Below, in pieces: positions 22,122 through 63,905 of a DNA stretch of 64,000 nt. The notes under the pieces were generated by a model. That model was not told where the DNA came from, did not search any database, and saw only the letters and a list, made by a program, of their open reading frames with translations. This DNA is from a virus, in the IMG/VR virus record IMGVR_UViG_3300034520_000378. One strand, written 5' to 3'. The translations under genes and the position numbers were made by a program. Position 1 is the stretch's first letter. Every line of letters starts with the position of its first letter.

Positions 22122-22132
22122 TACTATCCCTC

Positions 22133-28360: not shown

Positions 28361-28376
28361 ATAAAAAGACCGCACC

Positions 28377-31581: not shown

Positions 31582-31595
31582 ACAGCGCAACGCTC

Positions 31596-37180: not shown

Positions 37181-38707
37181 TTAGACGTTAAACACCATGG
37201 TGGCCGACATATCCTCTACAGCGTATTTTGCTTTGAAGGTCACATCAATCAGGCAGCCAAACGAAAAGGCGTCATACTGATACTCCGTCATGTCAAGCGA
37301 GTACGACTTTATCACACCTTCTCGCTGTATTGCCTTCATGGTTTCGTCAGCCGCCCGCTTCACCATCTCTCTAATAGGTATAATACCGCCAGTGGTGCCT
37401 ACAAAACTGTCCAGTACATTGCGGAGTCTGGAAATTATATAGTGTCCAGTCCGAACATTGGCTATATAGCGCAGCGGTCTTTCGTACGGCGCTGCAGTCA
37501 CGCCGTTGTACACGGAAAGCCCATTCTTCACCGAGTTGTAGAACACCACCAGCCCGGCTGCGGAAGCCCACCGCAGCGCCTCATCATCAAGCTCCACCCT
37601 CTGTTCGGTTATACTCACAAGCGGCTTGTTTGTGGTGGTCTCAGTACCATAAGCAGCAAGCAGTGCGGCATACGCTGGAGCACCGGATATATACATCCCA
37701 TCAAATGCAAGGTCGCCAAACACTATCGAGATGTAGTGCCCAAAATCCGTACCGTCCCGTACAAACCCGAGACGATTGTTAAGGCACGAGAACTTGATAA
37801 AGGATGCTATGTGCTCCGCGTTAAGCACCGGTACACTGTCGGGTATCGGCCGCACGCCAAGAACGCCAACAGTTGACACACCTACCGCCGCCTGCCTCCT
37901 GCAGAAGTCTATCAGCTGGCCGTGGAACGTGGGCGGCTCGCCATTGCTAAGAGGATATGTATCGAGAAAATCGGGATCGTCAGAGTACCACATGGTATAG
38001 CTCTGATCCGTGTCCCCCTCTTCAAGAAAGAGGGTGTACGACACGTCATTAAAGCGTGCATCAAGCAAAACCACTATGTCTGTCCTTCTGCCCTCAAGCA
38101 CGCTATAAGCATCCTCGAGCATTTGATAGAGCTCGTCCTTTGACGGAGCAAGCTCGTCGTTGCCGCCGTCGAGGTATACCACACTAGTGCCAAGCTCCGC
38201 TTTTAAGGCCTCCAGTGCAGCGATAAGCGCATCAGACGCAAAGTCCGGGTCAGTTGCACTGACCGATACCGGCACGCTGTCATTGTTTATCGCCTCGACA
38301 AGCATGCCAAGTGCCGGGTAGTTACTCAATGCGTAGCTGCCCACAAGCTGGTCACCCTGGTCATCGGACAGAAAGAACAAGAGCTGGCCTGCGTCTGCGG
38401 CAACCGCTATCCGGTTGCCCACCTCTCCGGCTTCCCTGCTCTTTATCTCGAAAAAGCACTGCCTGCCGTCAGTATCGGTCAGGACTAAAAGGCGCCGGGC
38501 ATGCTTGCCGTTTATACGCATCAAACAGTAGGTAGCATTGGGATTGACAGCATAAGCCATGCGGTATGCGTTATAAAGCGTGCCGCCGTATCCAAACACC
38601 GCCGCGGCATGTGCGGGGCTGGTAACCTCAATCGGCTCGAGAACGGGCCCGCCAGCTGCTGTGCCAAGCATCACGATTACTGACCCTATCGGTGCACTGT
38701 CAACCAT
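37181..38707 (-). CDS. second tail sheath-like protein
   Basis: Paralog of 34690..36531 (GTA.GGPV..P, MRINGK.A, GG.DEL..SK..L...L..AY..LE, T.NKP). Confidence 0.8.
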   Translation of the reverse strand: MVDSAPIGSVIVMLGTAAGGPVLEPIEVTSPAHAAAVFGYGGTLYNAYRMAYAVNPNATYCLMRINGKHARRLLVLTDTDGRQCFFEIKSREAGEVGNRIAVAADAGQLLFFLSDDQGDQLVGSYALSNYPALGMLVEAINNDSVPVSVSATDPDFASDALIAALEALKAELGTSVVYLDGGNDELAPSKDELYQMLEDAYSVLEGRRTDIVVLLDARFNDVSYTLFLEEGDTDQSYTMWYSDDPDFLDTYPLSNGEPPTFHGQLIDFCRRQAAVGVSTVGVLGVRPIPDSVPVLNAEHIASFIKFSCLNNRLGFVRDGTDFGHYISIVFGDLAFDGMYISGAPAYAALLAAYGTETTTNKPLVSITEQRVELDDEALRWASAAGLVVFYNSVKNGLSVYNGVTAAPYERPLRYIANVRTGHYIISRLRNVLDSFVGTTGGIIPIREMVKRAADETMKAIQREGVIKSYSLDMTEYQYDAFSFGCLIDVTFKAKYAVEDMSATMVFNV

Positions 38708-43922: not shown

Positions 43923-46900
43923 TCACTGCTTCTTTATAGCAATGCCGTAGAAGCTGTTAGCGCTTGAGGATATGAAGCTGTACGGCGCGTTAATCGCGAA
44001 GAACTTATAAACCTCCTCATCAGGCTGACCTTTGTTTACAACCAGTTCGTCAATTGGCGCAAGGCTGGCGCCGTCAACCGCAACGACACCGTCCAATGTG
44101 CCGCGGTAACCATCGAACGGATGCACAACGCTTATGCAGCTGACGTACACCTTGCCTGTGAAGCTGGATGGATTGAAGCCAATCTTGGTCATAAACTCCT
44201 CGGGCGTATGGAAGGCTGCCCTGTGCTGCTGGTAATAAGCCCCGCCGCGGGTGCGGTACATGCTGATATCGGTCACGCCGGTGGCAGTAGCTGGACCAAA
44301 GCTGCTCGGATAGTTTATCTTTGTCACTACTCCGGTCTGTGGATCTCTTACTATCTGGTTGATAACATATCCGGTTGGCGACGGCGATTCGTTCTTGAGA
44401 TTAGTAATGCTGCCGTCATCGATAAATTCCGTGACAGCCACATCTTGCACATAAGCAAGGAGCTTGTACTTGGTGGTATCTTTTGCTGCAGAAGACAAAG
44501 CGCGTTTATCCCATCCTAAAAAGGCGCCCCAGTAATTTGTCTTTCTAGTTGCACTAACCTCGGTATAGCGGTATATCTTCCAGCCAACAATGTCGTCCCG
44601 CTGCGGCAGTGTAACGGAAATCTTAACGCTGTAGTTAGTTCTTTTCTCTGGCGTGACAGTTGATTCAAACGTGTCTACATACACCATTTCGCTCGGGGGC
44701 GATTCGCCACTGTCAGTTACGAAGGTGATCATGTAGCAGTAATAAGTTGGATTACTGGAAGAGAAATTACCACTGCCAGGCATAAGCTGTGCGGAGACGA
44801 TTGTTTTTTCTGTCGGGGGATTTATCCTGTTTGCCGGCACAGTCGCAGAGGTTGTGGTAAGAGCAAAATTACCAAACGTATCATTGATCCCGCCTTCATA
44901 CGGCTTAATCCTTCCAATATAGGCAAAGCCAATAATGTAGTTCATGTAATCTACTCCCGGCTCACCCATGAGAACCATTACCAGCCTGTCATTGGTCACA
45001 CTCATCCAGTAACGTATAGCCACTTCCGTCATAGAAGACGGCAAGTTGACAGGCTTTAAATAACCACCCCTGCTGATCTGAATCGTGTTTCCACTAGTGC
45101 CACCGGAAATGTCATAAACAACAGGCACTTCTTCCCAGTCGCGCAGCCAGGACAGTTTGCTCCACGGCGACACGTGGGCGCCTTCGCTTACCAACATACC
45201 AGACGAATCATACACATTAGCAGCCGGTTTTTCAGCTACCGCATCCCATTTGTCAAACATCCTTACCTCGATGTAATGGTGGTTGGCGCCTGTTGGTTGG
45301 AACACGCCGTTCGCATCTCTGTAATATGTGGTACAGGTCTCCGGATTGATAATCTTGCTGGAGCGGTAGAACTCAACATACATCGTGAGCGATGTCATGT
45401 TGAGCCTTTCGTCGCTGTAGAGGTTCTGCAGCTTCTGCTCGTCTGTCAGCTCTACTGGCGTTGTGGTCGTTTTGAGCACAAGCCTGTCTTTTATCGCAGC
45501 AATAGCCTCTTCAATACCGTTTGTGTAGTAGCTGTAGTCTATTGTCGCCTGGTCCAAAACGTCCACCGGCTGGTTAAACACAACTGTACCGTCCTCATAG
45601 ATTACCTTATACTCACTTGTATCGACGGCTTGACCGTTGATGTAAACAGTCAGCGTATGCTCCGCGGATATTGGCTTGTTTGCAGTCTTGAACAGCTGGT
45701 TGTTAACCGGCACCAGCTCTTCATTCAGGATATCCTCAACAGATGCATAGTACGTGTAGTCTGCGGTTATATAATCCATCCGCGGGCAGAAGACAAACGA
45801 TGCTGTAATCACGGCAGACGTATCCTGGATGGTATTGAATACTATATTACCGTTTGTGGTATCAAGCGTGTATTCGCCCTGCGACACCGTCTGCCCGTTC
45901 CTCTTAACAACAAGGTTCTGCGACAGAACGTTTTTAACACCGGTCGAATAGACGATGTAGTTGGTGGTGGTCAGCCGGACATCCTGCAATGACACAACCG
46001 CTTCATAGTAGTAGTAATCAACGGTTATGGCATATGGCGTGCCGTAGTAGGAGTAGTCAACGGTTATGACAGCAGATGGGTCCTGAGCAGTGTTAAACAC
46101 TATGCGGTTGTTGTTTGTGTCAACGGTGTATTCCGATGCATCTACAGGCTGTGAATTGCGGTACACCACTACAGTGCCGGGTACTATCGGACTCCCAGCA
46201 ACGGTGTATATCTTGTTGTCCTGTGTCGAAGTAACCTCCTGTGTAACGCTTATAACCCTGCGCTGAATGTTGTTAAATGTGATCGTGCCGTTTATCCTGT
46301 CAACTGTGTACTCGGTTGGCGCCACAACATTACCATCCCTGTACACAACAATCGCATCTTCGAACGTGATAGGCTTGTGGGATACCGAATACACTCTGTA
46401 GTCAGTGGTACCGGGCGCTTCGCCCAATACGAAGGATACATTGCTCTGCACGGTGTCAAACGTAATTGTGCCGTTTGCAAGGCCTACGGCATACTCTGAT
46501 GGTGAAACATAAGTGCCGTTCCTGTACACTTTCAAAAGGTCAGCCGAGACAAGGGCGCCGTTCTGTGTACTGAAGTTGACACCGTCCGTCGACTTCAAAA
46601 CCTCGCCCGTTACCGCTGTGGCATTTGAGTAGCATGTATAGTCCGCAGTTATCACGTAGGGCTCGGACAGGTACTCGTAGCTTGCGGTTATGGCCGCATT
46701 CTCGTCCTGATAGAGACGGAACGTTACCTTGCCGTTCTTGGTCTCAAGCACGTACTCCACCGGGTCAACTTCCGCACCGTTCCTGAACACTTTAAGCGTG
46801 CTCGCCACGATCTCCGTATGACCGAGGTCGTACGTCCTATAATCGGTCGTCTGAAGGGAGACGTTCTCTACCGCCGCCCTCATCCTCTGCGGCTCTTTAA

Positions 46901-47213
46901 AGAGTATCGTGCCGTTTTGGTAGTCAACAGTGTATTCCGTCGAGCTGACAAGGCTGCCGTTGCGGAATACACGCACCACTCTGTTAGGCACGATGGGCTT
47001 TCTTGAAGTGTTGTAAAGCAGGTAGTTCTTGGATTCGAGCACTTCCTGCAGCACACGCCTTATTGACCTGTACTTCTGCGGAGATGGATATATCAGTTCC
47101 CAGTTCTTGCCCGGTATAAGCTCGCCTGCCGCATCTTTGAAGACCGTACAGGCGTTTCTTGCAATAGTCTTCAGTATCTCGTTGGACGATGTAAAACCCT
47201 CAATCCATGCCAT
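43923..47213 (-). CDS. fibre-like virion protein (1096 aa) with seven beta-sandwich repeats
   Basis: Seven 'V(Y/F)RNG..V...EY.VD..NG.I.F' cores and seven 'IT.DY'-type closing strands. Confidence 0.75.
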   Translation of the reverse strand: MAWIEGFTSSNEILKTIARNACTVFKDAAGELIPGKNWELIYPSPQKYRSIRRVLQEVLESKNYLLYNTSRKPIVPNRVVRVFRNGSLVSSTEYTVDYQNGTILFKEPQRMRAAVENVSLQTTDYRTYDLGHTEIVASTLKVFRNGAEVDPVEYVLETKNGKVTFRLYQDENAAITASYEYLSEPYVITADYTCYSNATAVTGEVLKSTDGVNFSTQNGALVSADLLKVYRNGTYVSPSEYAVGLANGTITFDTVQSNVSFVLGEAPGTTDYRVYSVSHKPITFEDAIVVYRDGNVVAPTEYTVDRINGTITFNNIQRRVISVTQEVTSTQDNKIYTVAGSPIVPGTVVVYRNSQPVDASEYTVDTNNNRIVFNTAQDPSAVITVDYSYYGTPYAITVDYYYYEAVVSLQDVRLTTTNYIVYSTGVKNVLSQNLVVKRNGQTVSQGEYTLDTTNGNIVFNTIQDTSAVITASFVFCPRMDYITADYTYYASVEDILNEELVPVNNQLFKTANKPISAEHTLTVYINGQAVDTSEYKVIYEDGTVVFNQPVDVLDQATIDYSYYTNGIEEAIAAIKDRLVLKTTTTPVELTDEQKLQNLYSDERLNMTSLTMYVEFYRSSKIINPETCTTYYRDANGVFQPTGANHHYIEVRMFDKWDAVAEKPAANVYDSSGMLVSEGAHVSPWSKLSWLRDWEEVPVVYDISGGTSGNTIQISRGGYLKPVNLPSSMTEVAIRYWMSVTNDRLVMVLMGEPGVDYMNYIIGFAYIGRIKPYEGGINDTFGNFALTTTSATVPANRINPPTEKTIVSAQLMPGSGNFSSSNPTYYCYMITFVTDSGESPPSEMVYVDTFESTVTPEKRTNYSVKISVTLPQRDDIVGWKIYRYTEVSATRKTNYWGAFLGWDKRALSSAAKDTTKYKLLAYVQDVAVTEFIDDGSITNLKNESPSPTGYVINQIVRDPQTGVVTKINYPSSFGPATATGVTDISMYRTRGGAYYQQHRAAFHTPEEFMTKIGFNPSSFTGKVYVSCISVVHPFDGYRGTLDGVVAVDGASLAPIDELVVNKGQPDEEVYKFFAINAPYSFISSSANSFYGIAIKKQ

Positions 47214-47267
47214 ATCAAAACTGCGGCCTGGGGACCCGCCGCCTTTAGGGGGCGGGAGGAAAGACCG

Positions 47268-48296
47268 CTAAACTACCTCCTTTCCAGAAATATACTGAGA
47301 CCGCCAGGAAACAGAGGTTAATACCCGGCAATCCTCGGGTTTCACAGTTCGTGTGACCCTCTTCCCTGTTTTGATGTCGTGCAGGCTCAGTCGACCGTTT
47401 AAGTGGCCGCCAACGTAGCAGAGGCCCCACCGCAGGTGCTTCACCAGTGTGCCGCGCTTGAGCCCCAGGCTACGAGTACCGCCGTAAGGCCTCCTGATTC
47501 CACCCTCCTCCGGCTCCAGGCGGTGCAGCTGGCGGCGGTGGAACCGCAATGGAACCAGGTAGTAGAGCCCGATGTGGTCGGGGTGTTCGGCGCCCGACAC
47601 GGAGGCCGCCAACACCCAGGCGTCCACGCAGTGGGAGAAGAAACTCTTCTTTCTTTTGTCGCCGTTCTTCTTGAGGCCGAACGCTTCCCGGAGCTGTTTC
47701 GTCTCGTGACCCTGCCTCAGAACGGGCTCGAACCCCAGCTCTCCCAGCTTCCGGTAGAAGCATTCCTTCCCCACCTGGACAGGGGAAAAGCTCCTGTTCC
47801 AGCGGCGGCTCCCCTTCTTCATCTCTGCCTTGACGTCCTCCACCACAATGTGGGAGATGGGAAGTATCCTGAGTAAGTCCCGGATTATCCTCAGCTTCGC
47901 CTCCCACCTCGCCCGGGTTGACGGGGGAAGGGTGTTACGCCCACGCAACCTCTCGGGCTTCGTAACCCGGCGACGGGTCTTGCGGTAACGCCTGGCGCGG
48001 CGCATCCGCCTCCTCTGCTCCACGGCCTTTTTCACGTGGGTTACGGCTTCCGACATGATGTTCAGAACGGTATGCTTTGTGCCCACTACGGAAGTACCCT
48101 CGAACTTGCTGCCCGGGTCCTGGCCAAGTGCAAGGATTTGATTTGCAGGCTCCACTTCGTAGGTGAGTTGGATGTAGAATATGCCCAGCTTGCTCCGCTT
48201 TGGAAGCGCTTTACCCCGCTTCAGGAACAACCTCGCCTTGGCCGGATGGCAGGGCATGAGGGGCCTTCCACCGGCGTCGACGACGGGAATGCGCAT
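47268..48296 (-). CDS. isrB: IsrB RNA-guided RuvC nickase (342 aa)
   Basis: PLMP motif, RuvC-I GQDPGSK, Arg-rich bridge helix, RuvC-II VVEDV, RuvC-III SHCVDA; no HNH domain; size ~350 aa; AAGGAGG SD. Confidence 0.9.
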   Translation of the reverse strand: MRIPVVDAGGRPLMPCHPAKARLFLKRGKALPKRSKLGIFYIQLTYEVEPANQILALGQDPGSKFEGTSVVGTKHTVLNIMSEAVTHVKKAVEQRRRMRRARRYRKTRRRVTKPERLRGRNTLPPSTRARWEAKLRIIRDLLRILPISHIVVEDVKAEMKKGSRRWNRSFSPVQVGKECFYRKLGELGFEPVLRQGHETKQLREAFGLKKNGDKRKKSFFSHCVDAWVLAASVSGAEHPDHIGLYYLVPLRFHRRQLHRLEPEEGGIRRPYGGTRSLGLKRGTLVKHLRWGLCYVGGHLNGRLSLHDIKTGKRVTRTVKPEDCRVLTSVSWRSQYISGKEVV

Positions 48297-48309
48297 CTCA
48301 ATTTCCTCC

Positions 48310-48602
48310 TTTTCCCGCTTGTACGGGAGAGCTATTCGCTCGGCTCCGGGTCAAAGCCCGGGTGAAATTCCCCTTCGGCAATGCCCGACAGGCATAGCGC
48401 GGTTTTAAACCACGCGCGGCATTCAGCGGTTCTGCCGGAAGGGACCGGACTAGGGGGGCATCCGGGCTTCCTTCGTAGCCCACCGGGCGTAGGGCTAACT
48501 GAGGAAGGAAGTCCTTCCGTCTTGTTGCCCTGAGCCTAGTGCACGGGTTACCCTCGGGCCCGCCAACCCAAGCCCTACGCCTGAAGGCGTAGGGTCCGTG
48601 AC
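48310..48602 (-). ncRNA. omegaRNA scaffold of IsrB
   Basis: ~290-nt highly structured region directly 5' of isrB, with GTCA..ACCC/GGGCTTG start, 'GATGC...CCTAGTCC' and 'CATTGCCGAAGGG' segments as recalled for omegaRNAs. Confidence 0.82.
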
Positions 48603-49045
48603 TAAGTAGTCCCTCCTGCAATGGCGAAATTCATGTCTATCCACGCCACCTTGGATGTGCCGCTGGCGTTGTTGAACACAAACCTGAGCACATCGCCAGC
48701 CTTAAGCTTGACAGCACCAAAGCTCTTAACCTGTGCCACCTCTTTGCAGTATATCGTCTCACAGACAACTTCACCGTTGATGTAGAACGACCAGTAATCA
48801 ACGTCCATGTATCCCGTACAGCCTACTTCTATGGACAGCAGCTCGGCATCCTGCGGCAGCGTGTATTCAATGGGGTACTCTCCAGGTGCAGCAGGCATTT
48901 CTACTCTAAACCCTTTAATGAAAGGCTTTTGGTATGTTGCAAACAGATGTGGAGGCAGGACAACCTGAACAGGGGCCCCTATGCCGTCTATCTTTCTTAC
49001 CCTGTCTATAAGCCCACCAACAGAGTAGTTTACATTAAAGCTCAA
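48602..49045 (-). CDS. virion structural protein (147 aa)
   Basis: GGAGG SD, TTG start; beta-rich; its stop codon overlaps the IS end. Confidence 0.7.
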   Translation of the reverse strand: MSFNVNYSVGGLIDRVRKIDGIGAPVQVVLPPHLFATYQKPFIKGFRVEMPAAPGEYPIEYTLPQDAELLSIEVGCTGYMDVDYWSFYINGEVVCETIYCKEVAQVKSFGAVKLKAGDVLRFVFNNASGTSKVAWIDMNFAIAGGTT

Positions 49046-49968
49046 CTGCCTCCCTCCTCTTTAGCGCGGATACGGACAATGCATCCGCCGTCCGTCTGCT
49101 CAATGACATAATCCACTTTGACAATGCCGTGGTCATCTCCGGGCATCCCGGTAACGCTCTTGCCTATTAGCCGTATGCCGAGTATGTCGCTCTCGGTTAG
49201 ATATAGCGGCAAGAACACGGCTATCTCGTTCGCTGTAGGATCAACAGCAGTAAGTTCAGATTCAAACAGAAGATGGGGTTCGTTGTTGGGTGGGGATGAT
49301 GTCTCCTCTTCTTCTGTCACGTACTGCTGCCCCACTGAAAATACGTAGACCGCCGACCATAAGCCAGTATTCCCGCTGGCATCAAGCGCTCGCACACGCC
49401 AGAAATAGTTGCCGTCATCCAAAGTAACGGCCGGCACCACACTTGTCTCCACCGTTGTGGTGCTCCACAGCAGCGGGTCCATCTCCGGTACAGCAGCCAG
49501 CTGTACCTCGTACAGCGCCGCACCACTGACGGATGCCCAGCTGAACTGGACAGTACCTGTAACAGCGGTCATGTTGACGGGAGACAGCAGCCTGGGCGCC
49601 TCAAGCAGAGCTGCAGCAGTGGTGGTAAAAGAAAACACGTGCATGCCTGCCATTGGGTAGCCCAGAATGGACTTGACACCATCCTGTCTGCCGTCATCAA
49701 GATCGGCATCGCCAACAACTATAACATTGTATGTAGTAGCGCCCTCTAACGGGGCGTTAGGTTTAAATACAGCTTTGCGGTCTGCATATGTTATAGCCCC
49801 GACAACCTTCTCCCCACCTGAAGCCTTTTGGACAATGATGTTGCCCACCAGGCTCTGGGGATCCATATCAGTGCTGAAAACAATAGTTATGTCCGTGGAG
49901 ACAGGGACGTCCACGGACATATTCGCTGGATTCGTACTGACAACGAAAGGCATGAAGACGTAACTCAT
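49042..49968 (-). CDS. virion protein with Ig-like (Big_5) and FN3-like domains
   Basis: 'VVST.PA.....VP....ITI.FS..MD', 'F.P..PL...TTY'; 'FSW..V.GA..Y.VQ...YFWRVRA...G.WS'. Confidence 0.8.
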   Translation of the reverse strand: MSYVFMPFVVSTNPANMSVDVPVSTDITIVFSTDMDPQSLVGNIIVQKASGGEKVVGAITYADRKAVFKPNAPLEGATTYNVIVVGDADLDDGRQDGVKSILGYPMAGMHVFSFTTTAAALLEAPRLLSPVNMTAVTGTVQFSWASVSGAALYEVQLAAVPEMDPLLWSTTTVETSVVPAVTLDDGNYFWRVRALDASGNTGLWSAVYVFSVGQQYVTEEEETSSPPNNEPHLLFESELTAVDPTANEIAVFLPLYLTESDILGIRLIGKSVTGMPGDDHGIVKVDYVIEQTDGGCIVRIRAKEEGGS

Positions 49969-49974
49969 GGAAGA

Positions 49975-50367
49975 TTACCGCCTCTTTTTACGAACAGGCT
50001 TCTTATCCTCCCCAGTCTCAACAGGCTCTACTACCTCTTCCTCTGCAGCAGACTCCTGCACATCCACCACGTCCTGCTCGGCCGCTGGGGTCTCCTCTTT
50101 CTGTTTGATTTCTTCAGCAGGAGTGGCCGCCTGCTCAACGACAGCTTCTTTTCCCTGGGGTTGCGCCTGTCCATTTTCATCAGCAAAAACAGTACCGTTT
50201 ACGTCAATCAATTCTCCGTACCGCACCGCCCGCTTGATATTGGTCAGGTCTGCGCCAAACGGCAGCTCACCAACCACCTTCTGCGGATATGTTAGGAATA
50301 ACCCCGAGACGGGGTCGCGGAAGTACACCCGCCTCGGGGCTAGCTTCAAAATATGCTTATCAGCCAT
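49975..50367 (-). CDS. head-associated hypothetical protein with acidic tail
   Basis: ORF directly after MCP; acidic low-complexity C-terminus ending in KKRR. Confidence 0.65.
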   Translation of the reverse strand: MADKHILKLAPRRVYFRDPVSGLFLTYPQKVVGELPFGADLTNIKRAVRYGELIDVNGTVFADENGQAQPQGKEAVVEQAATPAEEIKQKEETPAAEQDVVDVQESAAEEEVVEPVETGEDKKPVRKKRR

Positions 50368-50384
50368 TCTGGCTCACCCTAACC

Positions 50385-51488
50385 TTATACTGTCTTAATA
50401 CGGGGCGGTTCGGGCCAGCTGGCATCAAGCGTAATGTTCTTAGCAACGGCTATAGCACGTCCCTTGTGCAGTATTCCAATACCATACCTCTCAGTGAGCT
50501 TGATGTCCCTTATGTCGCGGGCAGGATTGTCAAACTCCTGAGTCCTTATATCCTCTCTTACGAGCAGAATACCGACGTTGTCCCTGTCTACACAGTACAT
50601 GTCAAACTTCTTGGCTTCTTTGTCGAATGGCACGAATGGCGACAGCAGCACTTCAAGCCCGAATGGTATCCTACCCTGTATGCTCTCGGGCCCTATCTCA
50701 AACTTCTGCGGCATCTCAGGGCTGCCGAAATACCATTTAGCACCGAAGGTCAAGAGCCCAGCAATCTCAGACTTGGCAAACGCAGACCATGTGAGCGGAT
50801 GCATTATAATGGTCGTCGGAGTAAACTCGTTTGCCATAACAGCGAGTATCAGATCCAGGAAGTCCTCCAGGGACATCGTTCCGTTCGGATTGCCGTCCTT
50901 GCCGAGGCCGGTGGTGTGTGCTTCGGGATACTGCTCTGCGGGGAGGCTGTTGTCGAAGACAGTCCAGCCATGCTTGCTGAATTCCCTGAATATCTTCTGC
51001 TCCTTGTGCCGTGCGAGAGCTCTTCCAGCCTCTTCAAGCATCATAGCCACGATATCCCACATGCTGTCCTCGATGAGCTCTCTGGTTACCTGCACCCTTA
51101 CGCCGGCCTTCCCGATGCGGACCTCGAGAGTGCCTTCGTAGGTCTGCACATCTACAGACTCGGCAGGGATTTCTTGCCCTTCGGCCACATCATACGCTCT
51201 GATAGGCCCAATTGCAGGGAATACATATACCTGACCGGAATTCTTGGTCCTCACGGTTTTGAGAAGCTTCTTGCCCAGGTATATAGGCTCGGCCGCCCTG
51301 CGTACAGCTCCAATTATGACCTTGGGGAGCAGAATTTGCGCAGAGGGCAATGCGGTAAACTCCTGGATAGTGGGCACGTCGCTTACCGCTTCGCCCCTCA
51401 TCGCAGCATTAACTCTCTCTATCAAATCAACCTCTTCCTGAGTGAGTGTGTAATTCTCAATGTCTTCCATGAATCTCCTGTTCATCAC
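50385..51488 (-). CDS. major capsid protein (HK97-like)
   Basis: 'A..VAEGQEIP', 'K.G..V.VT.ELIEDS..DI', 'IIMHPL.W', 'ERYG' patterns; follows protease and decoration genes. Confidence 0.88.
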   Translation of the reverse strand: MMNRRFMEDIENYTLTQEEVDLIERVNAAMRGEAVSDVPTIQEFTALPSAQILLPKVIIGAVRRAAEPIYLGKKLLKTVRTKNSGQVYVFPAIGPIRAYDVAEGQEIPAESVDVQTYEGTLEVRIGKAGVRVQVTRELIEDSMWDIVAMMLEEAGRALARHKEQKIFREFSKHGWTVFDNSLPAEQYPEAHTTGLGKDGNPNGTMSLEDFLDLILAVMANEFTPTTIIMHPLTWSAFAKSEIAGLLTFGAKWYFGSPEMPQKFEIGPESIQGRIPFGLEVLLSPFVPFDKEAKKFDMYCVDRDNVGILLVREDIRTQEFDNPARDIRDIKLTERYGIGILHKGRAIAVAKNITLDASWPEPPRIKTV

Positions 51489-51558
51489 TGCCCGGCATTT
51501 GCTGTATCAAAACAGCTATGCCACTTCCTCCTTTCCTCGTTCTGGTCTCATGCTTGGT

Positions 51559-52605
51559 TTAGAATATCAGTATTCTTGCAACACCAGCAGCACCGACATA
51601 GTCCCAACCGGGAGGTGTGCCAAGATAGTCAGTGCTGGTCTGAGCTATGACATATCCGTTGAGGTCCTGTCCAGCAGGCCATGGCAATGTAATAGTCACA
51701 GTCGCTTTTTCGTAATCAACGCTGAACTGGCTGGATGGCAGTTCCATACCAGCTACATACACTTTCACAAGGCCGTTGAACACAATGCTTCCAAGATTGA
51801 CAGTATAAGTCGTCTGGCCCATTGGAATAGTGAACGGCACCCTTGTGGAGCCTCTGTAGGCGCCATCAGTCAGACCGGGCATCCCCACAGGTGTATACTT
51901 GCTCGCCTCTACGCCGTCTCTGTAGCGCGGATCATATGGATACCCGTTTTCACCGGGTACAGCGTTTTGTGCAAAGTCAGGTTCAGGATAGAGCTCTTTC
52001 TTGGTCGCATCATCGAACATTACCCACTTGAACAAGCCCCATGGCTCTTTCTCGTCCTCAATTGCGATTACCTGGCCAACAACTGTCAGTGGATTGGTAC
52101 CATCATACTTGGTGAGGTGCCCTTTGTTGGCAGGATCCTTGGATACCATTACGTAGTCGCCAACGTTGAGACGGTTGTTTTCATCAATGTCATGTATTGC
52201 GCCGTACTTCACCAAAGCACAGTCGTCAGCCTTGGGGATATAGGGCAGCTCGATGTATGCCTGACGTATGAAGCTGGGCTCGTTGCCCACCATCTGATCA
52301 GGATACTTCTTGCAGATATTGTAGGGAGCAATTCCCACGTATGGCTTGTTGCCGTCAGCAATCGTAAGAACGGTCTTCTTAATGCCTGTCTCAGGATCGA
52401 CCGTTCTACCGTTTATAGCGACGGCTGTACCTTTGGGAATCACTACTTCCCTGTAACCAGGGAATCCGAATGGGTTTTCAAACAGAACAGGTAAGCTGGG
52501 GTCGGCTATGAAGCTTTCAGCGGGACTCTCGATCCCTGATACAACAAGCCTCGCGTTAGCCGTCCTGTCTTTAAGCCGATAGTCCATTTTGGGCATCAGT
52601 GCCAT
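51559..52605 (-). CDS. capsid decoration/cement protein
   Basis: Between protease and MCP; 'VVIPKG..VA', 'VGIAPYN', 'L.VGD.V', 'VVGQV'; extra beta-sandwich insert near the C-terminus. Confidence 0.6.
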   Translation of the reverse strand: MALMPKMDYRLKDRTANARLVVSGIESPAESFIADPSLPVLFENPFGFPGYREVVIPKGTAVAINGRTVDPETGIKKTVLTIADGNKPYVGIAPYNICKKYPDQMVGNEPSFIRQAYIELPYIPKADDCALVKYGAIHDIDENNRLNVGDYVMVSKDPANKGHLTKYDGTNPLTVVGQVIAIEDEKEPWGLFKWVMFDDATKKELYPEPDFAQNAVPGENGYPYDPRYRDGVEASKYTPVGMPGLTDGAYRGSTRVPFTIPMGQTTYTVNLGSIVFNGLVKVYVAGMELPSSQFSVDYEKATVTITLPWPAGQDLNGYVIAQTSTDYLGTPPGWDYVGAAGVARILIF

Positions 52606-52643
52606 TTCCGTTACTCCTCCTTATCTTGAGTGTTCATAGATGT

Positions 52644-53741
52644 TTATCTGCTGCTAAGCAGCTTTAAGAGTGCAGCTTCTAGGTCCTTAATGGTATACTT
52701 GTTTTCGTCTTGGGCTGCAGCCTTTTCCTCGACTACACCCTCGCCACCCGGGCACTGTACAGACTCGGTCTGCCGCGGTTCCGTGTGAAGCTTGGCTGAA
52801 AGCTTCAGTATCTCACCGCGCAGCTCTTTGGCGCTCATTTCAGCAGCCTTTTGCTCAGCCTCATCAGCTGTGCCGCAAAGCCCGGATGCAACAGCAAGGT
52901 CTGCATAGTGGTGCACAAGCTCTTCACGCAGGATCCTGGCAAGCTCAACGCTCTGCTCAACAACGGCAGTCAGTTTGCCCTGTGATTCCTCAACTGCCGC
53001 TTTCACTGCTTCAAGCTGCTGCTTCAGCTCTTCAATCTGACCCTTGAGCTCACCTACAGCGTCCTGCGTCTCCTCATTAGCCTGTACAACCTCCGTGCTC
53101 TCCTCCTTGTTCTCCACTGGTTCCTCAAAGGCCTCAACAATCTCTTCAATGAGTTCCATCTTTTCCATTGCAACCTCCCCATTTCTCCTATTACATATAC
53201 TACCGGCATCGCTGAGTTTTACAGCATCCATACTTTCCTGCGTTTTCTCCTCCGCAGTTTTAATGTCTATGATCTGCGCGTATGGATCTGCCGGGTAGTT
53301 GACGAACGACACTTCAACATGCTCGCCAATCTTTGCTATCCAGTAACAGAGCTTGCCGTCATATACACGGCCTTTCCTGTGCTCGCACGGTGTGCCCTGC
53401 GCCCAGTCATTCTTACAGATAGAGCACACGGCACTGGTTATCGTGGTGCCAATACTCAGGGTGTGGTACCGCCCGTCCTCTATCTTCTTTTGCGCATCAG
53501 GGTCGGTTATATTCAGCGTTAGCTCGGCGCAGTAGCTGTTCATCTTGAGGGAGCTCTTTCTAAAGCGCGCTCCAACAACCCTTCCCACGGGCTCGCTGTC
53601 AAGGTTGTGATGCGTCAGCACGGGCTTATTGTACGGCTCAGTCCAGGTGCTAAGTGCACGCTCAAGCTCTGCACGTGGATAGAAGTTGAAGTTTCCCGTC
53701 ATGCCGGAATGAATGGCCTCAGCAACCACAATCAGCGCCAT
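52644..53741 (-). CDS. prohead protease with C-terminal scaffold
   Basis: 'KPVLTHH', 'PVGRV', 'I.DGRY.TLSIG', 'EVSFVN.PAD'; acidic coiled-coil tail; AAGGAG SD before 53741. Confidence 0.85.
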   Translation of the reverse strand: MALIVVAEAIHSGMTGNFNFYPRAELERALSTWTEPYNKPVLTHHNLDSEPVGRVVGARFRKSSLKMNSYCAELTLNITDPDAQKKIEDGRYHTLSIGTTITSAVCSICKNDWAQGTPCEHRKGRVYDGKLCYWIAKIGEHVEVSFVNYPADPYAQIIDIKTAEEKTQESMDAVKLSDAGSICNRRNGEVAMEKMELIEEIVEAFEEPVENKEESTEVVQANEETQDAVGELKGQIEELKQQLEAVKAAVEESQGKLTAVVEQSVELARILREELVHHYADLAVASGLCGTADEAEQKAAEMSAKELRGEILKLSAKLHTEPRQTESVQCPGGEGVVEEKAAAQDENKYTIKDLEAALLKLLSSR

Positions 53742-55356
53742 GCGGAATCCCTCTCCTTTCTCCGGCAACCTTTTTATACGCCGCCTCAACTGCGGTATCG
53801 ATATCCATACCTTCTCCTTTGACAAGGGACTCTATCAGTACAAGGGCTGCTTCTTTAGCAACCTCAGGCGCATCGTCACCGTAAACGCTCGCCCGCTCGC
53901 ACACGTCAATCATCAGCTCTGCAGGCGATACGGCTTCTTCCGCCTTGCCCTTTCTGCCCGGCTTGCCAGGAGCGCTGGGCGTGGTCTGCGGCTGCGTCCG
54001 TGTAACCACATCGCTGGGCGATACAGCCACCTTCTTGCCCGTAGACTGGGCGACGGGTATCGTCACCAGGTTGTAGAACAGCTTTGCACGGTCAGTTATC
54101 GGATCCCGGCCCAGCTCTGCGCGCATCTCGTCTTCGGTGATACAGTTGGTAATGTACTGGTATATGATGTGGTTCTCGTACTTGATCTTCATGTCAAGGT
54201 CTATCTCGCGGAACCTGAAATAGACAGCGTCCTTGGGATTGAGCAGCGGGTCATATCCGCCCTCCATAAGCAGTTCCTTGATGATAAACTCGTTGATGAA
54301 CGATTCCATAACCCTCTGCATTGCTTTGACGGTCTCGCGCAGGTCAAAATACTGCGACTCGGCCGTTGCACGGCTGGCGGAACCGCTGCGTCCCATAACC
54401 GTCTCGGAAACACCCAGCCCGGTAAATACCCTCTGTTCGAAATACCTCAGGTAATTGTTAGCGTCTATCACGTTGTCAAGAGCTATGGGTACTATCTTGT
54501 GCCTTTCCGTAGTGACCAGGCCCGCTTCAAGGTCCATGTTCTCTATCATCTGCTTGGCTGCCTGTACCTCTTCATCCGTACCGCCATACCCCTCACGGTC
54601 AAGCCCTATAATGTGATGCAGGAACGGGTAGAGGTTGCGGTATATCAGCTTGAGGACATTCTCTTCAACCTGCCTTAAGGCGTTGATGTCCTCAATAACG
54701 GATACAAGGTACGGCATTGCAAAGACCTGGTTTTTGTCACGCTTGTAGTAAAAGTGGACAACGTCTTCAGGTTTCAGCTCAAGCGGTTTGGTATTACCCG
54801 GGAAATTGACCACCCATTTGTACACGTTTCCCGCGCTATCACGCTCAATCTGGACATAGTTCAGATTAACAGGGAAGTAGCCAACAACCGGCTGCTTGCC
54901 ATTGATGCCGCGAACCACAAGCCCTTTAGGCCAGGTAATGTTCTTCCTGACCTTTATCACAACGGCGTTTGAATACTTGACAAGATCCTCGGCTATCTCA
55001 ACAAACAGCTGGTTGGTAGGGATCCTGGTCATTTCAGCTATCAGCTTGAGCCGCTTGTTGATATAATCCACTATCCGTGGATTGTCGCCTATGAAATCCC
55101 AGCCGGCCTTGAACATCAGCTCTATGTGCTTGTCAACCGCCCGACGCACAAACGCCTCGTTCTTGTACAAAGCGTCAATCCTGGCTATATCAAAGTCTAC
55201 CGGGGTGAGCTCGCGGTCAAAGTCCTGCTTGCGCCCCGGAATCAGCTCGATCCGCGCTATCGGGTCACGCTGCGTTTTCTTCGGCTCAGGAGCCGGCTGT
55301 TCGTGTACTCTAACATCCCTATTCAAGAACGCTTTAATCGCATTAGCTATCCTCAA
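53719..55356 (-). CDS. portal protein
   Basis: 'FVRRAVD', 'DLVKY.NA', 'PEDVVHF', 'F..LGV', 'IT.DEMR.ELG.DP' portal motifs; upstream of protease. Confidence 0.85.
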   Translation of the reverse strand: MRIANAIKAFLNRDVRVHEQPAPEPKKTQRDPIARIELIPGRKQDFDRELTPVDFDIARIDALYKNEAFVRRAVDKHIELMFKAGWDFIGDNPRIVDYINKRLKLIAEMTRIPTNQLFVEIAEDLVKYSNAVVIKVRKNITWPKGLVVRGINGKQPVVGYFPVNLNYVQIERDSAGNVYKWVVNFPGNTKPLELKPEDVVHFYYKRDKNQVFAMPYLVSVIEDINALRQVEENVLKLIYRNLYPFLHHIIGLDREGYGGTDEEVQAAKQMIENMDLEAGLVTTERHKIVPIALDNVIDANNYLRYFEQRVFTGLGVSETVMGRSGSASRATAESQYFDLRETVKAMQRVMESFINEFIIKELLMEGGYDPLLNPKDAVYFRFREIDLDMKIKYENHIIYQYITNCITEDEMRAELGRDPITDRAKLFYNLVTIPVAQSTGKKVAVSPSDVVTRTQPQTTPSAPGKPGRKGKAEEAVSPAELMIDVCERASVYGDDAPEVAKEAALVLIESLVKGEGMDIDTAVEAAYKKVAGERRGIPHGADCGC

Positions 55357-55768: not shown

Positions 55769-56086
55769 TTATTCCCTCTCTGACATAATAGGCTCTTCAG
55801 TCGGAATACTATCAACAGATGTTCTCTTGCGTCCGCCCGCCCACGGCAGCGGTAGATGCCCAATCGCCTTACCGCCAACCGCGATCAACAGCGGATAGCT
55901 CAGTACCGTGAAAAAGTCAACCTGCACCGGACTTAGACTTTCCGACAGCGCCAGCCTAATAGCTACATACATCCAAACAGGGAGGATGAGTATAACAACA
56001 ACGTCGGCTAGGCTGAGACCGTCGTCGTCCGCCCAAAAACCCTTCTCAATAACCGACATTGCCTTGTGTGTAAACATCTTAAGCAT
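55769..56086 (-). CDS. small two-TM membrane protein (holin-like)
   Basis: 'FW.DDDGLS..D' followed by two hydrophobic segments. Confidence 0.55.
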   Translation of the reverse strand: MLKMFTHKAMSVIEKGFWADDDGLSLADVVVILILPVWMYVAIRLALSESLSPVQVDFFTVLSYPLLIAVGGKAIGHLPLPWAGGRKRTSVDSIPTEEPIMSERE

Positions 56087-56456
56087 TAGAGCAGCACCCC
56101 AAGGAAACAGGTATAGGTCTTTTGATGTGCACCATGTTCGCTATGCAGTCATCACCCAACTTTGAAATGATATAGCTACATGCGGCAACTGGATCGCAGT
56201 GCCTGCCGCATGTAAAACAGTCTACAGCTGCATAGCCGTACTCGGGATATGTATGGATCGAGATATGGCTTTCGGACAAAAGCAGTACGACTGAAACGCC
56301 TTGCGGCTCAAACTTCTCGTAGGCCTCACCCCGAATGGTGGCCCCGGCAGCCTGAGCCGCACACCGTAATATGTCCCTTATCATGTCTAGATTGTCCAGT
56401 ATCGCAGGATCCGCATTGTATATCTCACAGATGGAGTGTTTGCCGTGAACCTCCAT
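56079..56456 (-). CDS. speD: S-adenosylmethionine decarboxylase proenzyme family
   Basis: G.H, KFEPQGVS, LSE/SHISIHTYPE self-cleavage motif, DCFTCG. Confidence 0.93.
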   Translation of the reverse strand: MEVHGKHSICEIYNADPAILDNLDMIRDILRCAAQAAGATIRGEAYEKFEPQGVSVVLLLSESHISIHTYPEYGYAAVDCFTCGRHCDPVAACSYIISKLGDDCIANMVHIKRPIPVSLGCCSNA

Positions 56457-57020: not shown

Positions 57021-57953
57021 CTATTTCCCGCATAAAGCCGCGGACGGATATGCGGTTACAAATCCATATCCAGTGTATCTATCAAGCCCTGTTTTCCCTA
57101 TGTCAACGGTCATAAGCCTTGTAATAGTCTTAAGCTCGCCGGCTGTAGGCTTGCGTCCTGTGCGCTTCACGAACTTCTCTATTACGCACGCTGCAAAGGC
57201 CGCCACATGCGGACAGGCCATAGATGTGCCGCTCATGTTTGCATAACTGGAGTTGATATAGGTTGATACAATGTCTTCACCCGGTGCGGCTACCTCTACG
57301 TGGTCGTTTGTGTTTGTGAAATAGCACGCTGCAAAGTTGTGCTTTATCGCACCAACGGAAAGCGTCTCGGGATACGCCGCCGGATAGTCAAGCTCAATAG
57401 TGCTGTCATTGCCATCACCGGAATTTCCTGCTGCACACACAACAAGCATGCCGCTTGCAAAGGCCTTTCTCACAGCAGCGGCAAGCAAAGGATGATGATC
57501 AGGCCCGCCAAGGCTCATGTTTATAACATCCACCTTTTCGCCGTTAGGCCCGCGCCAGTTGACAGCATAGTCAAGCGCACGAATCACCCTGTCGGTACTG
57601 CACTGGCCACTGGCGTCAAACACCTTGATTATGAGCAGCTTGGCGTCCGGCGCGCCACCTCTGATCCGTCCGTTTGCGGCTATTATCCCCGCAACGTGCG
57701 TTCCGTGTCCGTTCTCGTCCCTGATATCCGATATGCTCTGTCCATCCACCAGGTTCATACCACCAATGATATTGGCCTTTAGATCGGGATGGTTCACATC
57801 ACAGCCGGAGTCTATAACCGCTACTACTACGCCTTTGCCGCTGCACTCCTTCCACAGGTGCTGGAACCCCATGAGCTTTATGTTGTCGAAGGTGCTGTTC
57901 ACTGCCTCGAAAACGGTAAGCTCATGCGCTTGTACGTCAAAAAGCTGCATCAC
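57021..57953 (-). CDS. subtilisin-like S8 serine protease (intracellular type)
   Basis: Catalytic triad VIDSG, HGTHVAG, GTSMACPHV; oxyanion AAGN; no signal peptide. Confidence 0.95.
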   Translation of the reverse strand: MMQLFDVQAHELTVFEAVNSTFDNIKLMGFQHLWKECSGKGVVVAVIDSGCDVNHPDLKANIIGGMNLVDGQSISDIRDENGHGTHVAGIIAANGRIRGGAPDAKLLIIKVFDASGQCSTDRVIRALDYAVNWRGPNGEKVDVINMSLGGPDHHPLLAAAVRKAFASGMLVVCAAGNSGDGNDSTIELDYPAAYPETLSVGAIKHNFAACYFTNTNDHVEVAAPGEDIVSTYINSSYANMSGTSMACPHVAAFAACVIEKFVKRTGRKPTAGELKTITRLMTVDIGKTGLDRYTGYGFVTAYPSAALCGK

Positions 57954-63436: not shown

Positions 63437-63905
63437 GGCTTATCCTCCTAGCCTCGCTGCCAAGCGCAAAGTTAACGGCCATCTTCGATTCCTGCATCGC
63501 AGCAACCGCCCTGCGCCTTGCAGTAGCCTTTGCAGCATTGTCAAAGAACCCGCGGCCTATTGAGTTGCCATTTCTGACACCGGGCGTTGGTCTGTACGTA
63601 AACGCTCTTTGCCCCAGTATACCGCCCAGGGTGTAAGCAAGCTGACCGAATGATAACCCCCACATCACCGGACTGGCAACCTTCCACAGTAGCAAATCGA
63701 AGGCGGCGCGGCCAGCTGCGCCCACCAGCCCTTCCTTGGGATTTTCCTTCATGCGATTTGCTACGTCCCAGGCCGTCAGTCCCACGGTGAGCACGGTGCC
63801 GAAGCCTATACCGTGCGGAATAACCGCCTGCTTCAGAAGGTACCCGCCAGCTCTGACATTGTTGACAGCATTGTTGATAAAGGTAGATGCCTTAAAACCA
63901 GGCAA
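63414..63905 (-). CDS. hypothetical protein with hydrophobic segments, upstream of terL
   Basis: TTG start with GGGGAG SD; overlaps the terL start. Confidence 0.65.
   Translation of the reverse strand: MPGFKASTFINNAVNNVRAGGYLLKQAVIPHGIGFGTVLTVGLTAWDVANRMKENPKEGLVGAAGRAAFDLLLWKVASPVMWGLSFGQLAYTLGGILGQRAFTYRPTPGVRNGNSIGRGFFDNAAKATARRRAVAAMQESKMAVNFALGSEARRISRGYFDSF

What the first reader, a model, noticed from the sequence alone, without database searches (positions are those of the whole stretch)
47215..48625. Intact IsrB-omegaRNA OMEGA system in a phage virion operon, with readable guide and TAM
Seen: RuvC D/E/D residues are intact and the scaffold looks complete. The 5' flank is the end of a structural gene (...TTGCAGGAGGGACTACTTA) and the other flank begins TTGA (47218-47215). 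Established: IscB/IsrB guides come from the flank 5' of the scaffold, with a 3' TAM, and NTGA was reported for Desulfovirgula thermocuniculi IsrB. Inference: it nicks the IS-free allele ...GGGACTACTTA|TTGATATGGCA in sister phages or after excision, acting as an RNA-guided homing element. It is also a candidate compact, possibly thermostable nickase.
Basis: partly seen in the sequence, partly recalled or inferred. Interest (0 to 1): 0.72.

Follow-up and report, generated by a model that had tools for sequence, protein, structure and literature searches.

The report
IsrB guide-RNA transposon in phage operon
A 1.4-kb selfish DNA element that encodes a small RNA-guided DNA nickase (IsrB) and its guide RNA sits exactly between two virion genes of a large phage, and sister phages from four other data sets have the same site empty, so its exact borders, target and recognition motif can be read directly. 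The kind of element is already known.

Summary
Window 47214-48602 (minus strand, 1389 bp) is an intact, non-autonomous IS200/IS605-type element. It carries an omegaRNA scaffold (48297-48602) and isrB (47268-48296, 342 aa). The protein's best PDB match is DtIsrB 8DMB (E 6e-51), D60/E153/D225 are intact and there is no HNH domain. It lies in a myovirus-like virion module.

The right border is wrong by 5 nt. A sister IMG/VR contig, and contigs from three compost metagenomes of three separate studies, join 47213 directly to 48603. The empty allele is therefore ...GGGACTACTTA|ATGGCA. TTGAT is the last 5 nt of the element, and the TAM is ATGG, which contains the start codon of the downstream gene.

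Thirty-three insertion sites of related elements all abut RTGR. The IsrB residue that reads TAM base 4 (DtIsrB Q326) is Q at all 25 NTGA sites. It is K or R at 7 of 8 NTGG sites, including R316 here.

The insertion rebuilds the upstream stop codon (TA+G). It also separates the downstream gene from its Shine-Dalgarno sequence.

No tnpA is present. Expression, nicking and homing remain untested. This is a new member of a known kind and is useful as a natural before/after pair.

The parts
47214..48602 (-). Whole inserted element, 1389 bp. On the IsrB sense strand it begins GTCACGG and ends GCAGTTTTGAT. It makes no target-site duplication.
   Evidence: Empty allele in L001. BLAST breaks at L001 5943/5944, matching window 48603/47213. 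Contigs of runs X5, X6 and X8 skip exactly 1389 bp with 0 ambiguous letters. GC is 0.58-0.64 inside the element against about 0.5 outside.
48603..48622 (-). Flank that would supply the roughly 20-nt guide (CATTGCAGGAGGGACTACTTA region). It is the end of the 147-aa virion gene. It contains the AGGAGG Shine-Dalgarno of the downstream gene (48617-48612) and the TA of the stop codon.
   Evidence: It lies directly 5' of HEARO model position 1. It is identical in L001. It occurs once in the window, even with up to 3 mismatches allowed. The guide position follows Hirano 2022.
48297..48602 (-). omegaRNA scaffold, about 306 nt. The Rfam HEARO match covers 48362-48602. Compared with relatives it has an insertion of about 25 nt in one stem-loop and an extra 3' hairpin ahead of the isrB Shine-Dalgarno.
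48573..48594 (+). Subterminal hairpin of the transposon right end on the transposon top strand (CCCTACGCC TGAA GGCGTAGGG). It ends 8 nt from the element end. On the other strand it is stem-loop 1 of the omegaRNA.
   Evidence: DNA fold, z = -3.0, 0 of 200 shuffles as stable. The stem covaries across relatives.
47268..48296 (-). isrB coding sequence, 342 aa. RuvC residues: D60 (48117-48119), E153 (47838-47840), D225 (47622-47624). TAM-reading residues: R313, and R316 (47349-47351).
47235..47256 (+). Subterminal hairpin of the transposon left end on the top strand (CCCGCC.GC TTTA GG.GGCGGG), 21 nt from the element end.
   Evidence: DNA fold. On its own it is weak (z = -1.4). Its position and shape resemble IS200/IS605 ends.
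47210..47213 (-). TAM ATGG on the IsrB sense (non-target) strand. Its ATG is the start codon of the 1096-aa virion gene.
   Evidence: It is the first flank base pairs in the empty allele. Thirty-three related insertion sites all abut RTGR.
48602..49045 (-). Upstream 147-aa virion structural gene. Its stop codon is TAA in the empty allele. Here it is TAG, with the G being the first base of the element.
   Evidence: PHROG 5955, 2e-32. Sequences.
43923..47213 (-). Downstream 1096-aa virion structural or fibre-like gene. The insertion now puts 1389 bp between this gene and its Shine-Dalgarno sequence.
   Evidence: PHROGs virion structural protein hits and Pfam DUF2460. In L001, AGGAGG lies 9 nt before the ATG.

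Best explanation
This is a non-autonomous IS200/IS605-superfamily element of the ISC1/IsrB type. It inserted, without a target-site duplication, between the TA and the A of the overlapping stop/start TAATG that joins two late virion genes of a large myovirus-like phage.

Shown by the data:
- the exact borders of the element;
- the empty allele in sister phages;
- an intact isrB and an intact omegaRNA;
- the same orientation as the operon;
- a guide-encoding flank identical to the empty allele;
- the flank motif ATGG.

Inferred mechanism:
1. Read-through transcription of the late operon yields an omegaRNA whose 5' roughly 20 nt copy the end of the upstream gene.
2. The IsrB-omegaRNA complex binds the element-free allele (protospacer followed by ATGG). 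R313 reads G3 and R316 reads G4 of the TAM.
3. It nicks the non-target strand about 8-11 nt 5' of the TAM, as DtIsrB does.
4. Replication turns the nick into a break, which is repaired from an element-bearing genome. This copies the element into co-infecting sister phages, or restores it after excision by TnpA.
5. The phage's own allele is spared because its protospacer is followed by GTCA, which has no G at TAM position 3.

The first insertion needed a Y1 TnpA supplied in trans, presumably by the host.
For: - Identity of the protein: Pfam RRXRR, 8DMB at 6e-51, profile against 8DMB at 2.4e-72 over residues 2-319, Foldseek top hit 8DMB.
- Catalytic D60/E153/D225 are invariant, and the length is the same as in the 73-78% identical relatives.
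- omegaRNA: HEARO full-length match and covariation in 30 of 35 pairs.
- Borders and empty allele.
- The right end starts at GTCA in every related element, with unrelated flanks. Other contigs of source run X2 also leave the omegaRNA 5' end at 48603/48604 and run into unrelated DNA.
- TAM: all 33 related sites abut RTGR.
- Residue/TAM covariation: Q at 25 of 25 NTGA sites, K or R at 7 of 8 NTGG sites, Fisher p = 1.9e-6. There are four within-family sister contrasts, plus this window against its Q-bearing relatives.
- Literature: Q326 reads TAM A4 and Q326R accepts G; the nick lies 8-11 nt upstream of the TAM; the guide is 20 nt (PMC9581776). [quoted passage not shown] TnpA-independent spread among plasmids, and the idea of homing into co-infecting phages, are discussed in PMC13565253.
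- The protospacer is unique in the window.
Against: - There is no expression data, and no promoter-like site lies in or near the element, so guide production depends on assumed read-through.
- IsrB is only a nickase, and homing driven by an IsrB nick has not been demonstrated for any element.
- No tnpA is present in the window or next to any of 167 related loci.
- The occupied allele is seen in one study only, and no sample shows both alleles, so one old transposition event would explain the polymorphism without any homing.
- The insertion removes the Shine-Dalgarno from the 1096-aa virion gene, which is a probable cost.
- One related element (L102) sits at ATGG while carrying Q.
- The R316 assignment rests on a sequence alignment of the GKRxxQ motif, not on a structure of this protein.
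Confidence: 0.6

Rival explanations
1. Passive passenger. A host TnpA dropped the element once into single-stranded phage DNA at a CCAT/ATGG site. It is intact only because it is young, and IsrB plays no part in its persistence or spread in the phage.
For: - The occupied allele is found in one study only, while the empty allele is found in four independent data sets.
- GC is 10 points above the flanks, as expected for a recent foreign arrival.
- There is no tnpA, no promoter and no RNA evidence.
- The insertion disrupts the Shine-Dalgarno/start arrangement of a virion gene.
Against: - Every functional part is intact and matches its target: the catalytic triad, the full scaffold, a perfect guide-to-empty-allele match, and a TAM-reading residue that fits the local TAM.
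- The element-bearing contigs have high word depth, about 90, in the source run, and no empty-allele contig is present there.
Confidence: 0.28
2. Competition weapon. The phage keeps the element because the RNA-guided nick damages co-infecting sister phages that lack it (marker exclusion), whether or not the element is copied into them.
For: - The target lies in a conserved gene junction that includes the Shine-Dalgarno, and it is present unchanged in sister phages.
- Free-standing phage homing endonucleases are known to exclude competitors (PMC13565253).
- A low-depth variant allele in X6 replaces the 5 TAM-proximal target bases, as an escape variant would.
Against: - A single nick is readily repaired.
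- There is no evidence that the phages meet in one cell.
- The X6 variant is one contig at depth 3.
- This rival cannot be separated from homing with the present data.
Confidence: 0.08
3. Decaying prophage. The virion module belongs to a defective prophage, and the element is one of several insertions that are inactivating it.
For: The Shine-Dalgarno of a large virion gene is cut off. The only terminase match is a 314-aa piece at 62492-63436.
Against: - All other virion ORFs are long and open, and all lie on one strand.
- The 6 kb upstream of the element is 97% identical to L001, which is classed as viral, and the same module recurs in three compost metagenomes.
- No other IS or HEARO copy is present in the window.
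Confidence: 0.04

Closest known systems
DtIsrB-omegaRNA of Desulfovirgula thermocuniculi (PDB 8DMB; Hirano 2022, PMC9581776)
   Same: It has the same domain order: PLMP/RRXRR, a split RuvC without HNH, and a C-terminal TAM-interacting domain. The size is about 350 aa. The omegaRNA lies upstream on the same strand with the guide at its 5' end. R313 aligns with R323 in the GKRxxQ motif. The sequence match is E 6e-51 and it is the best fold match.
   Different: Foldseek gives 34% sequence identity to 8DMB. Position Q326 is R316 here, and the natural site has TAM ATGG, whereas wild-type DtIsrB cuts NTGA but not NTGG. The scaffold is about 40 nt longer. Activity has not been tested.
BbIsrB (NTGG TAM) and K2IsrB (from a viral metagenome), both in Hirano 2022
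   Same: BbIsrB is a natural IsrB with an NTGG TAM, and K2IsrB is an IsrB found on viral metagenome DNA. Neither feature is therefore unprecedented.
   Different: Those proteins were characterised as enzymes only. No insertion site, empty allele or phage gene context was described. Their sequences were not compared here.
ISGst IscB/TnpB elements of Geobacillus stearothermophilus (Meers et al. 2023, 10.1101/2023.03.14.532601)
   Same: These are IS200/IS605-type non-autonomous elements. The omegaRNA is bounded by the right end. The TAM that abuts the left end is shared by transposase and nuclease (GstIscB TTCAT, which is ATGAA on the IscB strand, against ATGG here). The element has the same orientation as the upstream gene. 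The logic is homing to the donor joint.
   Different: Those nucleases make double-strand breaks and sit in a chromosome with TnpA in the same cell. This one is a nickase on a phage with no tnpA in 64 kb.
Free-standing and nicking homing endonucleases of phages (T4 Seg/Mob; the SPO1/SP82 I-HmuI type is cited from memory)
   Same: A selfish nuclease gene is wedged between conserved phage genes. The target is the allele that lacks it. For I-HmuI, a nick is sufficient for homing.
   Different: Their target recognition is by protein rather than by a guide RNA copied from the flank. They have no transposon ends.

Membership tests
IsrB (OMEGA RNA-guided nickase) | N-terminal PLMP/RRXRR domain | tested here: met
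   Pfam PF14239 at 1e-36 over residues 3-161, and the PLMP motif at residues 12-15.
IsrB (OMEGA RNA-guided nickase) | Split RuvC with a catalytic D/E/D triad | tested here: met
   D60 (DPG), E153 (VEDV) and D225 (VDAW) are invariant in 19 relatives and align to DtIsrB.
IsrB (OMEGA RNA-guided nickase) | No HNH insertion between RuvC II and RuvC III (this separates IsrB from IscB) | tested here: met
   Only 71 residues lie between E153 and D225. There is no HNH Pfam hit. The best matches are IsrB rather than IscB, and IscB structures align only to the N-terminal 115-160 residues.
IsrB (OMEGA RNA-guided nickase) | C-terminal TAM-interacting domain with the G3-reading arginine | tested here: met
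   The profile alignment reaches the GKRxxQ motif of 8DMB, placing R313 at Dt R323 and R316 at Dt Q326. The model has beta strands over residues 284-336, and the Foldseek alignment to 8DMB spans 348 columns. The model has low confidence over residues 251-278.
IsrB (OMEGA RNA-guided nickase) | Cognate omegaRNA (HEARO type) directly upstream on the same strand | tested here: met
   Rfam RF02033 covers model positions 1-211, E 2.8e-10, but 57 bits is below the gathering score of 83. Covariation across 37 homologous upstream regions supports it.
IsrB (OMEGA RNA-guided nickase) | Guide- and TAM-dependent nicking of the non-target strand | not testable with these tools
   This needs biochemistry.
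IS200/IS605 superfamily (ISC1-type, non-autonomous) | Insertion without target-site duplication, 3' of a fixed short motif that abuts the left end | tested here: met
   Comparison of empty and occupied alleles shows no duplication. The top-strand motif is CCAT here and YCAY at 33 related sites.
IS200/IS605 superfamily (ISC1-type, non-autonomous) | Subterminal hairpins at both ends instead of terminal inverted repeats | tested here: met
   The right-end hairpin lies 8 nt from the end (z = -3.0). The left-end hairpin lies 21 nt from the end (z = -1.4, weak). The stems are similar: CCCnnCGCC...GGCGnnGGG.
IS200/IS605 superfamily (ISC1-type, non-autonomous) | Y1 HUH transposase TnpA | tested here: not met
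   No homologue was found in the six-frame translation of the window (best E 0.5) or in the flanks of 167 related loci. This is the usual state: about 1.5% of iscB genes lie near tnpA. The element is therefore filed as non-autonomous.

The most novel reading that the evidence does not exclude
This would be a natural case of TnpA-independent, nick-driven 'non-restorative' homing of an OMEGA element between co-infecting phages. The IsrB has switched its TAM reading (Q to R at the Dt Q326 position) to match an ATGG site that is the start codon of a virion gene. The guide covers that gene's Shine-Dalgarno, so the target cannot easily mutate away.
Probability: 0.3. Interest if true: 0.65.

Novelty: new member of a known kind. 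Interest (0 to 1): 0.42.

Why it matters
IsrB elements, their omegaRNAs, NTGA/NTGG TAMs and the homing model are all published, so the class is not new. This locus adds three things.

1. It is a clean natural before/after pair. The borders are known to the base, the empty alleles come from independent metagenomes, and guide and target match perfectly. That makes RNA-guided homing by a nickase in phages directly testable.
2. Across natural insertion sites, the residue at DtIsrB position 326 tracks the fourth TAM base: Q with A, K or R with G. This agrees with the engineered Q326R result and allows the TAM to be predicted from sequence.
3. It shows the cost side. The insertion cuts a virion gene off from its ribosome-binding site while rebuilding the upstream stop codon.

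As a tool candidate it is one more compact nickase, probably with an NTGG or NTGR TAM. Thermostability is unproven.

Tried and rejected
- No whole genome is held for this window.
- GenBank phages gave no near match to 20 kb around the site.
- IMG/VR holds one empty junction (L001) and no occupied junction.
- No RNA holder is listed among the public runs, so expression could not be assessed.
- Only contigs could be laid, not raw reads, so rare excision junctions in the source runs could not be sought.
- The C-terminal 70 aa searched alone against the PDB gave only chance hits, such as phage gpW at E 0.07. The profile search was used instead.
- Test of whether the TAM ATG is usually a real start codon: 20 of 33 sites open an ORF of at least 50 codons or run off the contig, against a 37% background. 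A Shine-Dalgarno-like motif lies in the 5' flank in 5 of 23 sites, against a 10% background. This is suggestive but not established.
- No promoter-like site was found in the region, and no terminator-like site on the minus strand.
- No tRNA and no other Rfam family above threshold was found in the window.
- No group I intron or IStron signal was found.
Full report
**What is there**

On the minus strand, the 342-aa ORF at 47268-48296 is an IsrB.
- Pfam gives only RRXRR (PF14239), at 1e-36.
- The best solved relative is Desulfovirgula thermocuniculi IsrB, 8DMB, at E 6e-51 over residues 2-296. IscB structures match only the N-terminal part.
- A profile of 19 relatives extends the 8DMB match to residue 319, at 2.4e-72.
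- An AlphaFold model (pLDDT 74) has 8DMB as its top Foldseek hit, E 1.4e-27, aligned over its whole length.
- D60, E153 and D225 are invariant in the alignment, and the protein has the same length as its nearest relatives. Those are 73-78% identical and come from MAGs labelled Bacillota and Moorellales.
- No HNH domain is present.

Directly upstream on the same strand, Rfam HEARO (the IscB/IsrB omegaRNA) matches 48362-48602 over the whole model. The E-value is 2.8e-10, but 57 bits is below the gathering score of 83. I aligned the region from GTCA to the start codon with 36 homologous upstream regions from fetched loci. The window copy has every conserved block, and RNAalifold finds 35 pairs, 30 of them with compensatory changes. 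The scaffold is therefore complete. It carries an extra insertion of about 25 nt in one stem-loop and one extra 3' hairpin before a strong Shine-Dalgarno and the ATG of isrB.

**Setting**

Nearly all long ORFs of the window lie on the minus strand. They include:
- a terminase large-subunit piece (62492-63436);
- an S8 protease (57021-57953);
- portal (53719-55356);
- major head protein (50385-51488);
- a 147-aa virion structural protein (48602-49045);
- a 1096-aa virion structural or fibre-like protein (43923-47213);
- tail sheath (37181-38707).

The element lies between the 147-aa and the 1096-aa genes. Its GC content is 0.58-0.64, against about 0.5 on either side.

**Borders and the empty allele**

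A tblastn-confirmed relative of the 147-aa gene in IMG/VR is L001, an 8.6-kb contig. There the two virion genes are joined as ...GGAGGGACTACTTAATGGCATGG, with the stop TAA overlapping the start ATG by one base. BLAST of L001 on the window breaks exactly at L001 5943/5944, which corresponds to window 48603/47213. Identity is 97.0% over the 5.9 kb upstream and 81.9% over the 2.4 kb downstream.

Logan contigs of three compost-metagenome runs from three different studies (X5, X6, X8) also join 47213 to 48603. They skip 1389 bp with no letters that could belong to either side. The four runs that hold the whole stretch all come from one study and may be the source of the window. They carry the occupied allele at a word depth of about 90, and no contig there joins across the element.

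The element is therefore 47214-48602. On the IsrB strand it begins GTCACGG, which is HEARO position 1, and ends GCAGTTTTGAT. It makes no target duplication.

The right border is 5 nt off. TTGAT belongs to the element, and the flank is ATGGCA.

**Consequences for the phage genes, read from the sequence**

- The insertion falls between the TA and the A of the stop codon TAA.
- The first G of the element recreates a stop (TAG), so the 147-aa protein is unchanged.
- The 1096-aa gene keeps its ATG. Its Shine-Dalgarno (AGGAGG, 9 nt before the ATG in L001) is now 1389 bp away, and the last 30 nt of the element offer nothing comparable.
- No promoter-like site was found in the region, and no terminator-like site on the minus strand.

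The empty allele confirms that reading.

**Type of element**

[quoted passage not shown] For GstIscB the TAM is TTCAT, which is ATGAA on the IscB strand.

This element fits that layout. On the transposon top strand (window plus strand):
- the left end starts after ...CCAT and has a GC-rich hairpin 21 nt inside;
- the right end has a perfect 9-bp hairpin that ends 8 nt before the terminal ...GTGAC.

All-against-all BLAST of 167 fetched IsrB loci shows many families of units about 1.3 kb long, with unrelated flanks. In each family the unit starts at GTCA. Other contigs of source run X2 also match the omegaRNA 5' end up to 48603/48604 and then run into unrelated DNA, so related elements sit elsewhere in that community.

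No Y1 TnpA is encoded in the window. A six-frame phmmer search with two TnpA proteins taken from genomes G004 and G005 gave a best E of 0.5. None lies within 2.5-3 kb of any related locus either. This is the normal non-autonomous state described in the literature.

**The TAM**

At 33 insertion sites of related elements, the first four flank bases after the left end are always RTGR: 25 NTGA and 8 NTGG. ATGG in the window is within that range.

Hirano et al. showed the following for DtIsrB:
- R323 reads G3 and Q326 reads A4 of the TAM.
- The wild-type enzyme cuts TTGA and ATGA targets but not TTGG or ATGG.
- The Q326R mutant cuts all four.
- BbIsrB naturally prefers NTGG.
- The nick lies 8-11 nt upstream of the TAM on the non-target strand.

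The profile alignment places the window's GKRVTR on DtIsrB's GKRIGQ, so R313 corresponds to R323 and R316 to Q326. The nearest relatives have Q at this position.

Across the sites with a readable TAM, every one of the 25 NTGA sites has Q. The NTGG sites have K (L095, L114, L135, L143, L066) or R (L017 and the window), with one exception (L102, which has Q at ATGG). Fisher's test gives p = 1.9e-6. Because relatives share states, the fairer count is four within-family contrasts that agree, plus the window against its relatives.

The element's own nuclease therefore looks matched to the site where it sits.

**Mechanism**

Shown:
- a complete nuclease gene and scaffold;
- a guide-encoding flank that is unique in the window and identical to the empty allele;
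- a compatible TAM in the empty allele;
- GTCA in place of a TAM in the occupied allele;
- the same orientation as the operon, which is what guide transcription from outside the element requires.

Inferred: read-through transcription, processing into an omegaRNA, nicking of element-free sister genomes, conversion of the nick into a recombinogenic break during replication, and copying of the element.

A 2026 review treats homing into co-infecting phages as theoretically possible. It cites TnpA-independent, TnpB-dependent spread within a plasmid population. Nothing comparable has been shown for IsrB.

The main rival is a young passive insertion. The occupied allele is known from one study only, nothing shows expression, and the insertion probably costs the phage translation of a virion gene.

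**How ordinary it is**

The IsrB family is very large, with 2794 proteins at E <= 1e-20 in one search. At least 76 loci in IMG/VR encode relatives at 32-58% identity. One characterised orthologue, K2IsrB, came from a viral metagenome. The class, the TAM range and the homing idea are all known.

The value of this locus lies in its base-exact natural alleles and in the residue/TAM covariation.

Thermostability is not supported by any test here. Compost and subsurface sources, and relatives labelled Moorellales, are only hints. Another agent's note calls the host heat-loving Firmicutes (e1-5734404), and I did not verify that.

**Limits**

- No genome is held for the window.
- Only contigs, not reads, could be laid on the window.
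- No RNA run is listed.

Noticed in passing
Loci L014-L166 and window 47349-47351: Across natural IsrB insertion sites, the residue aligned to DtIsrB Q326 tracks the fourth TAM base. It is Q at 25 of 25 NTGA sites and K or R at 7 of 8 NTGG sites. There are four within-family switches that agree, and one exception (L102).
   Followed up: yes
window 47213-48608; run X6: A low-depth (3x) sister-phage contig has a variant empty allele. The five target bases next to the TAM (ACTTA) are replaced by CAATAG, giving ...GGGACTCAATAG|ATGGCA. That would mismatch the guide in its TAM-proximal part, so this may be a naturally resistant allele.
   Followed up: no
window 43923-47213 against 48603-54551; L001: Identity to the sister contig L001 drops from 97.0% upstream of the insertion point to 81.9% downstream, and is 92.7% in the first 300 nt. 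The 1096-aa fibre-like gene is much more variable than the head genes, and the change of regime starts at the junction.
   Followed up: partly
Loci L088, L096, L104, L017, L119, L124 and others; X2 contig flank: In many related elements the TAM ATG/GTG looks like the start codon of a downstream gene in the same orientation; the ORFs from it run up to about 500 codons. One other element in the source sample sits 8 nt after an AAAGGAGG. The enrichment over background is modest: about 60% against 37% for ORFs, and 22% against 10% for Shine-Dalgarno-like motifs.
   Followed up: partly
window 62492-63905: The only terminase large-subunit match is a 314-aa ORF that covers just positions 261-488 of an 807-position PHROG profile. 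A separate 163-aa ORF lies upstream. The gene may be split, frameshifted or interrupted near the window end.
   Followed up: no
window 15840-28375: Two adjacent giant ORFs of 2093 and 2080 aa lie in the tail region. A 689-aa protein with five PG_binding_1 repeats lies at 29521-31590.
   Followed up: no
window 56079-56456 and 57021-57953: A SpeD-like S-adenosylmethionine decarboxylase and a subtilisin-family (S8) protease lie inside the head and packaging cluster.
   Followed up: no
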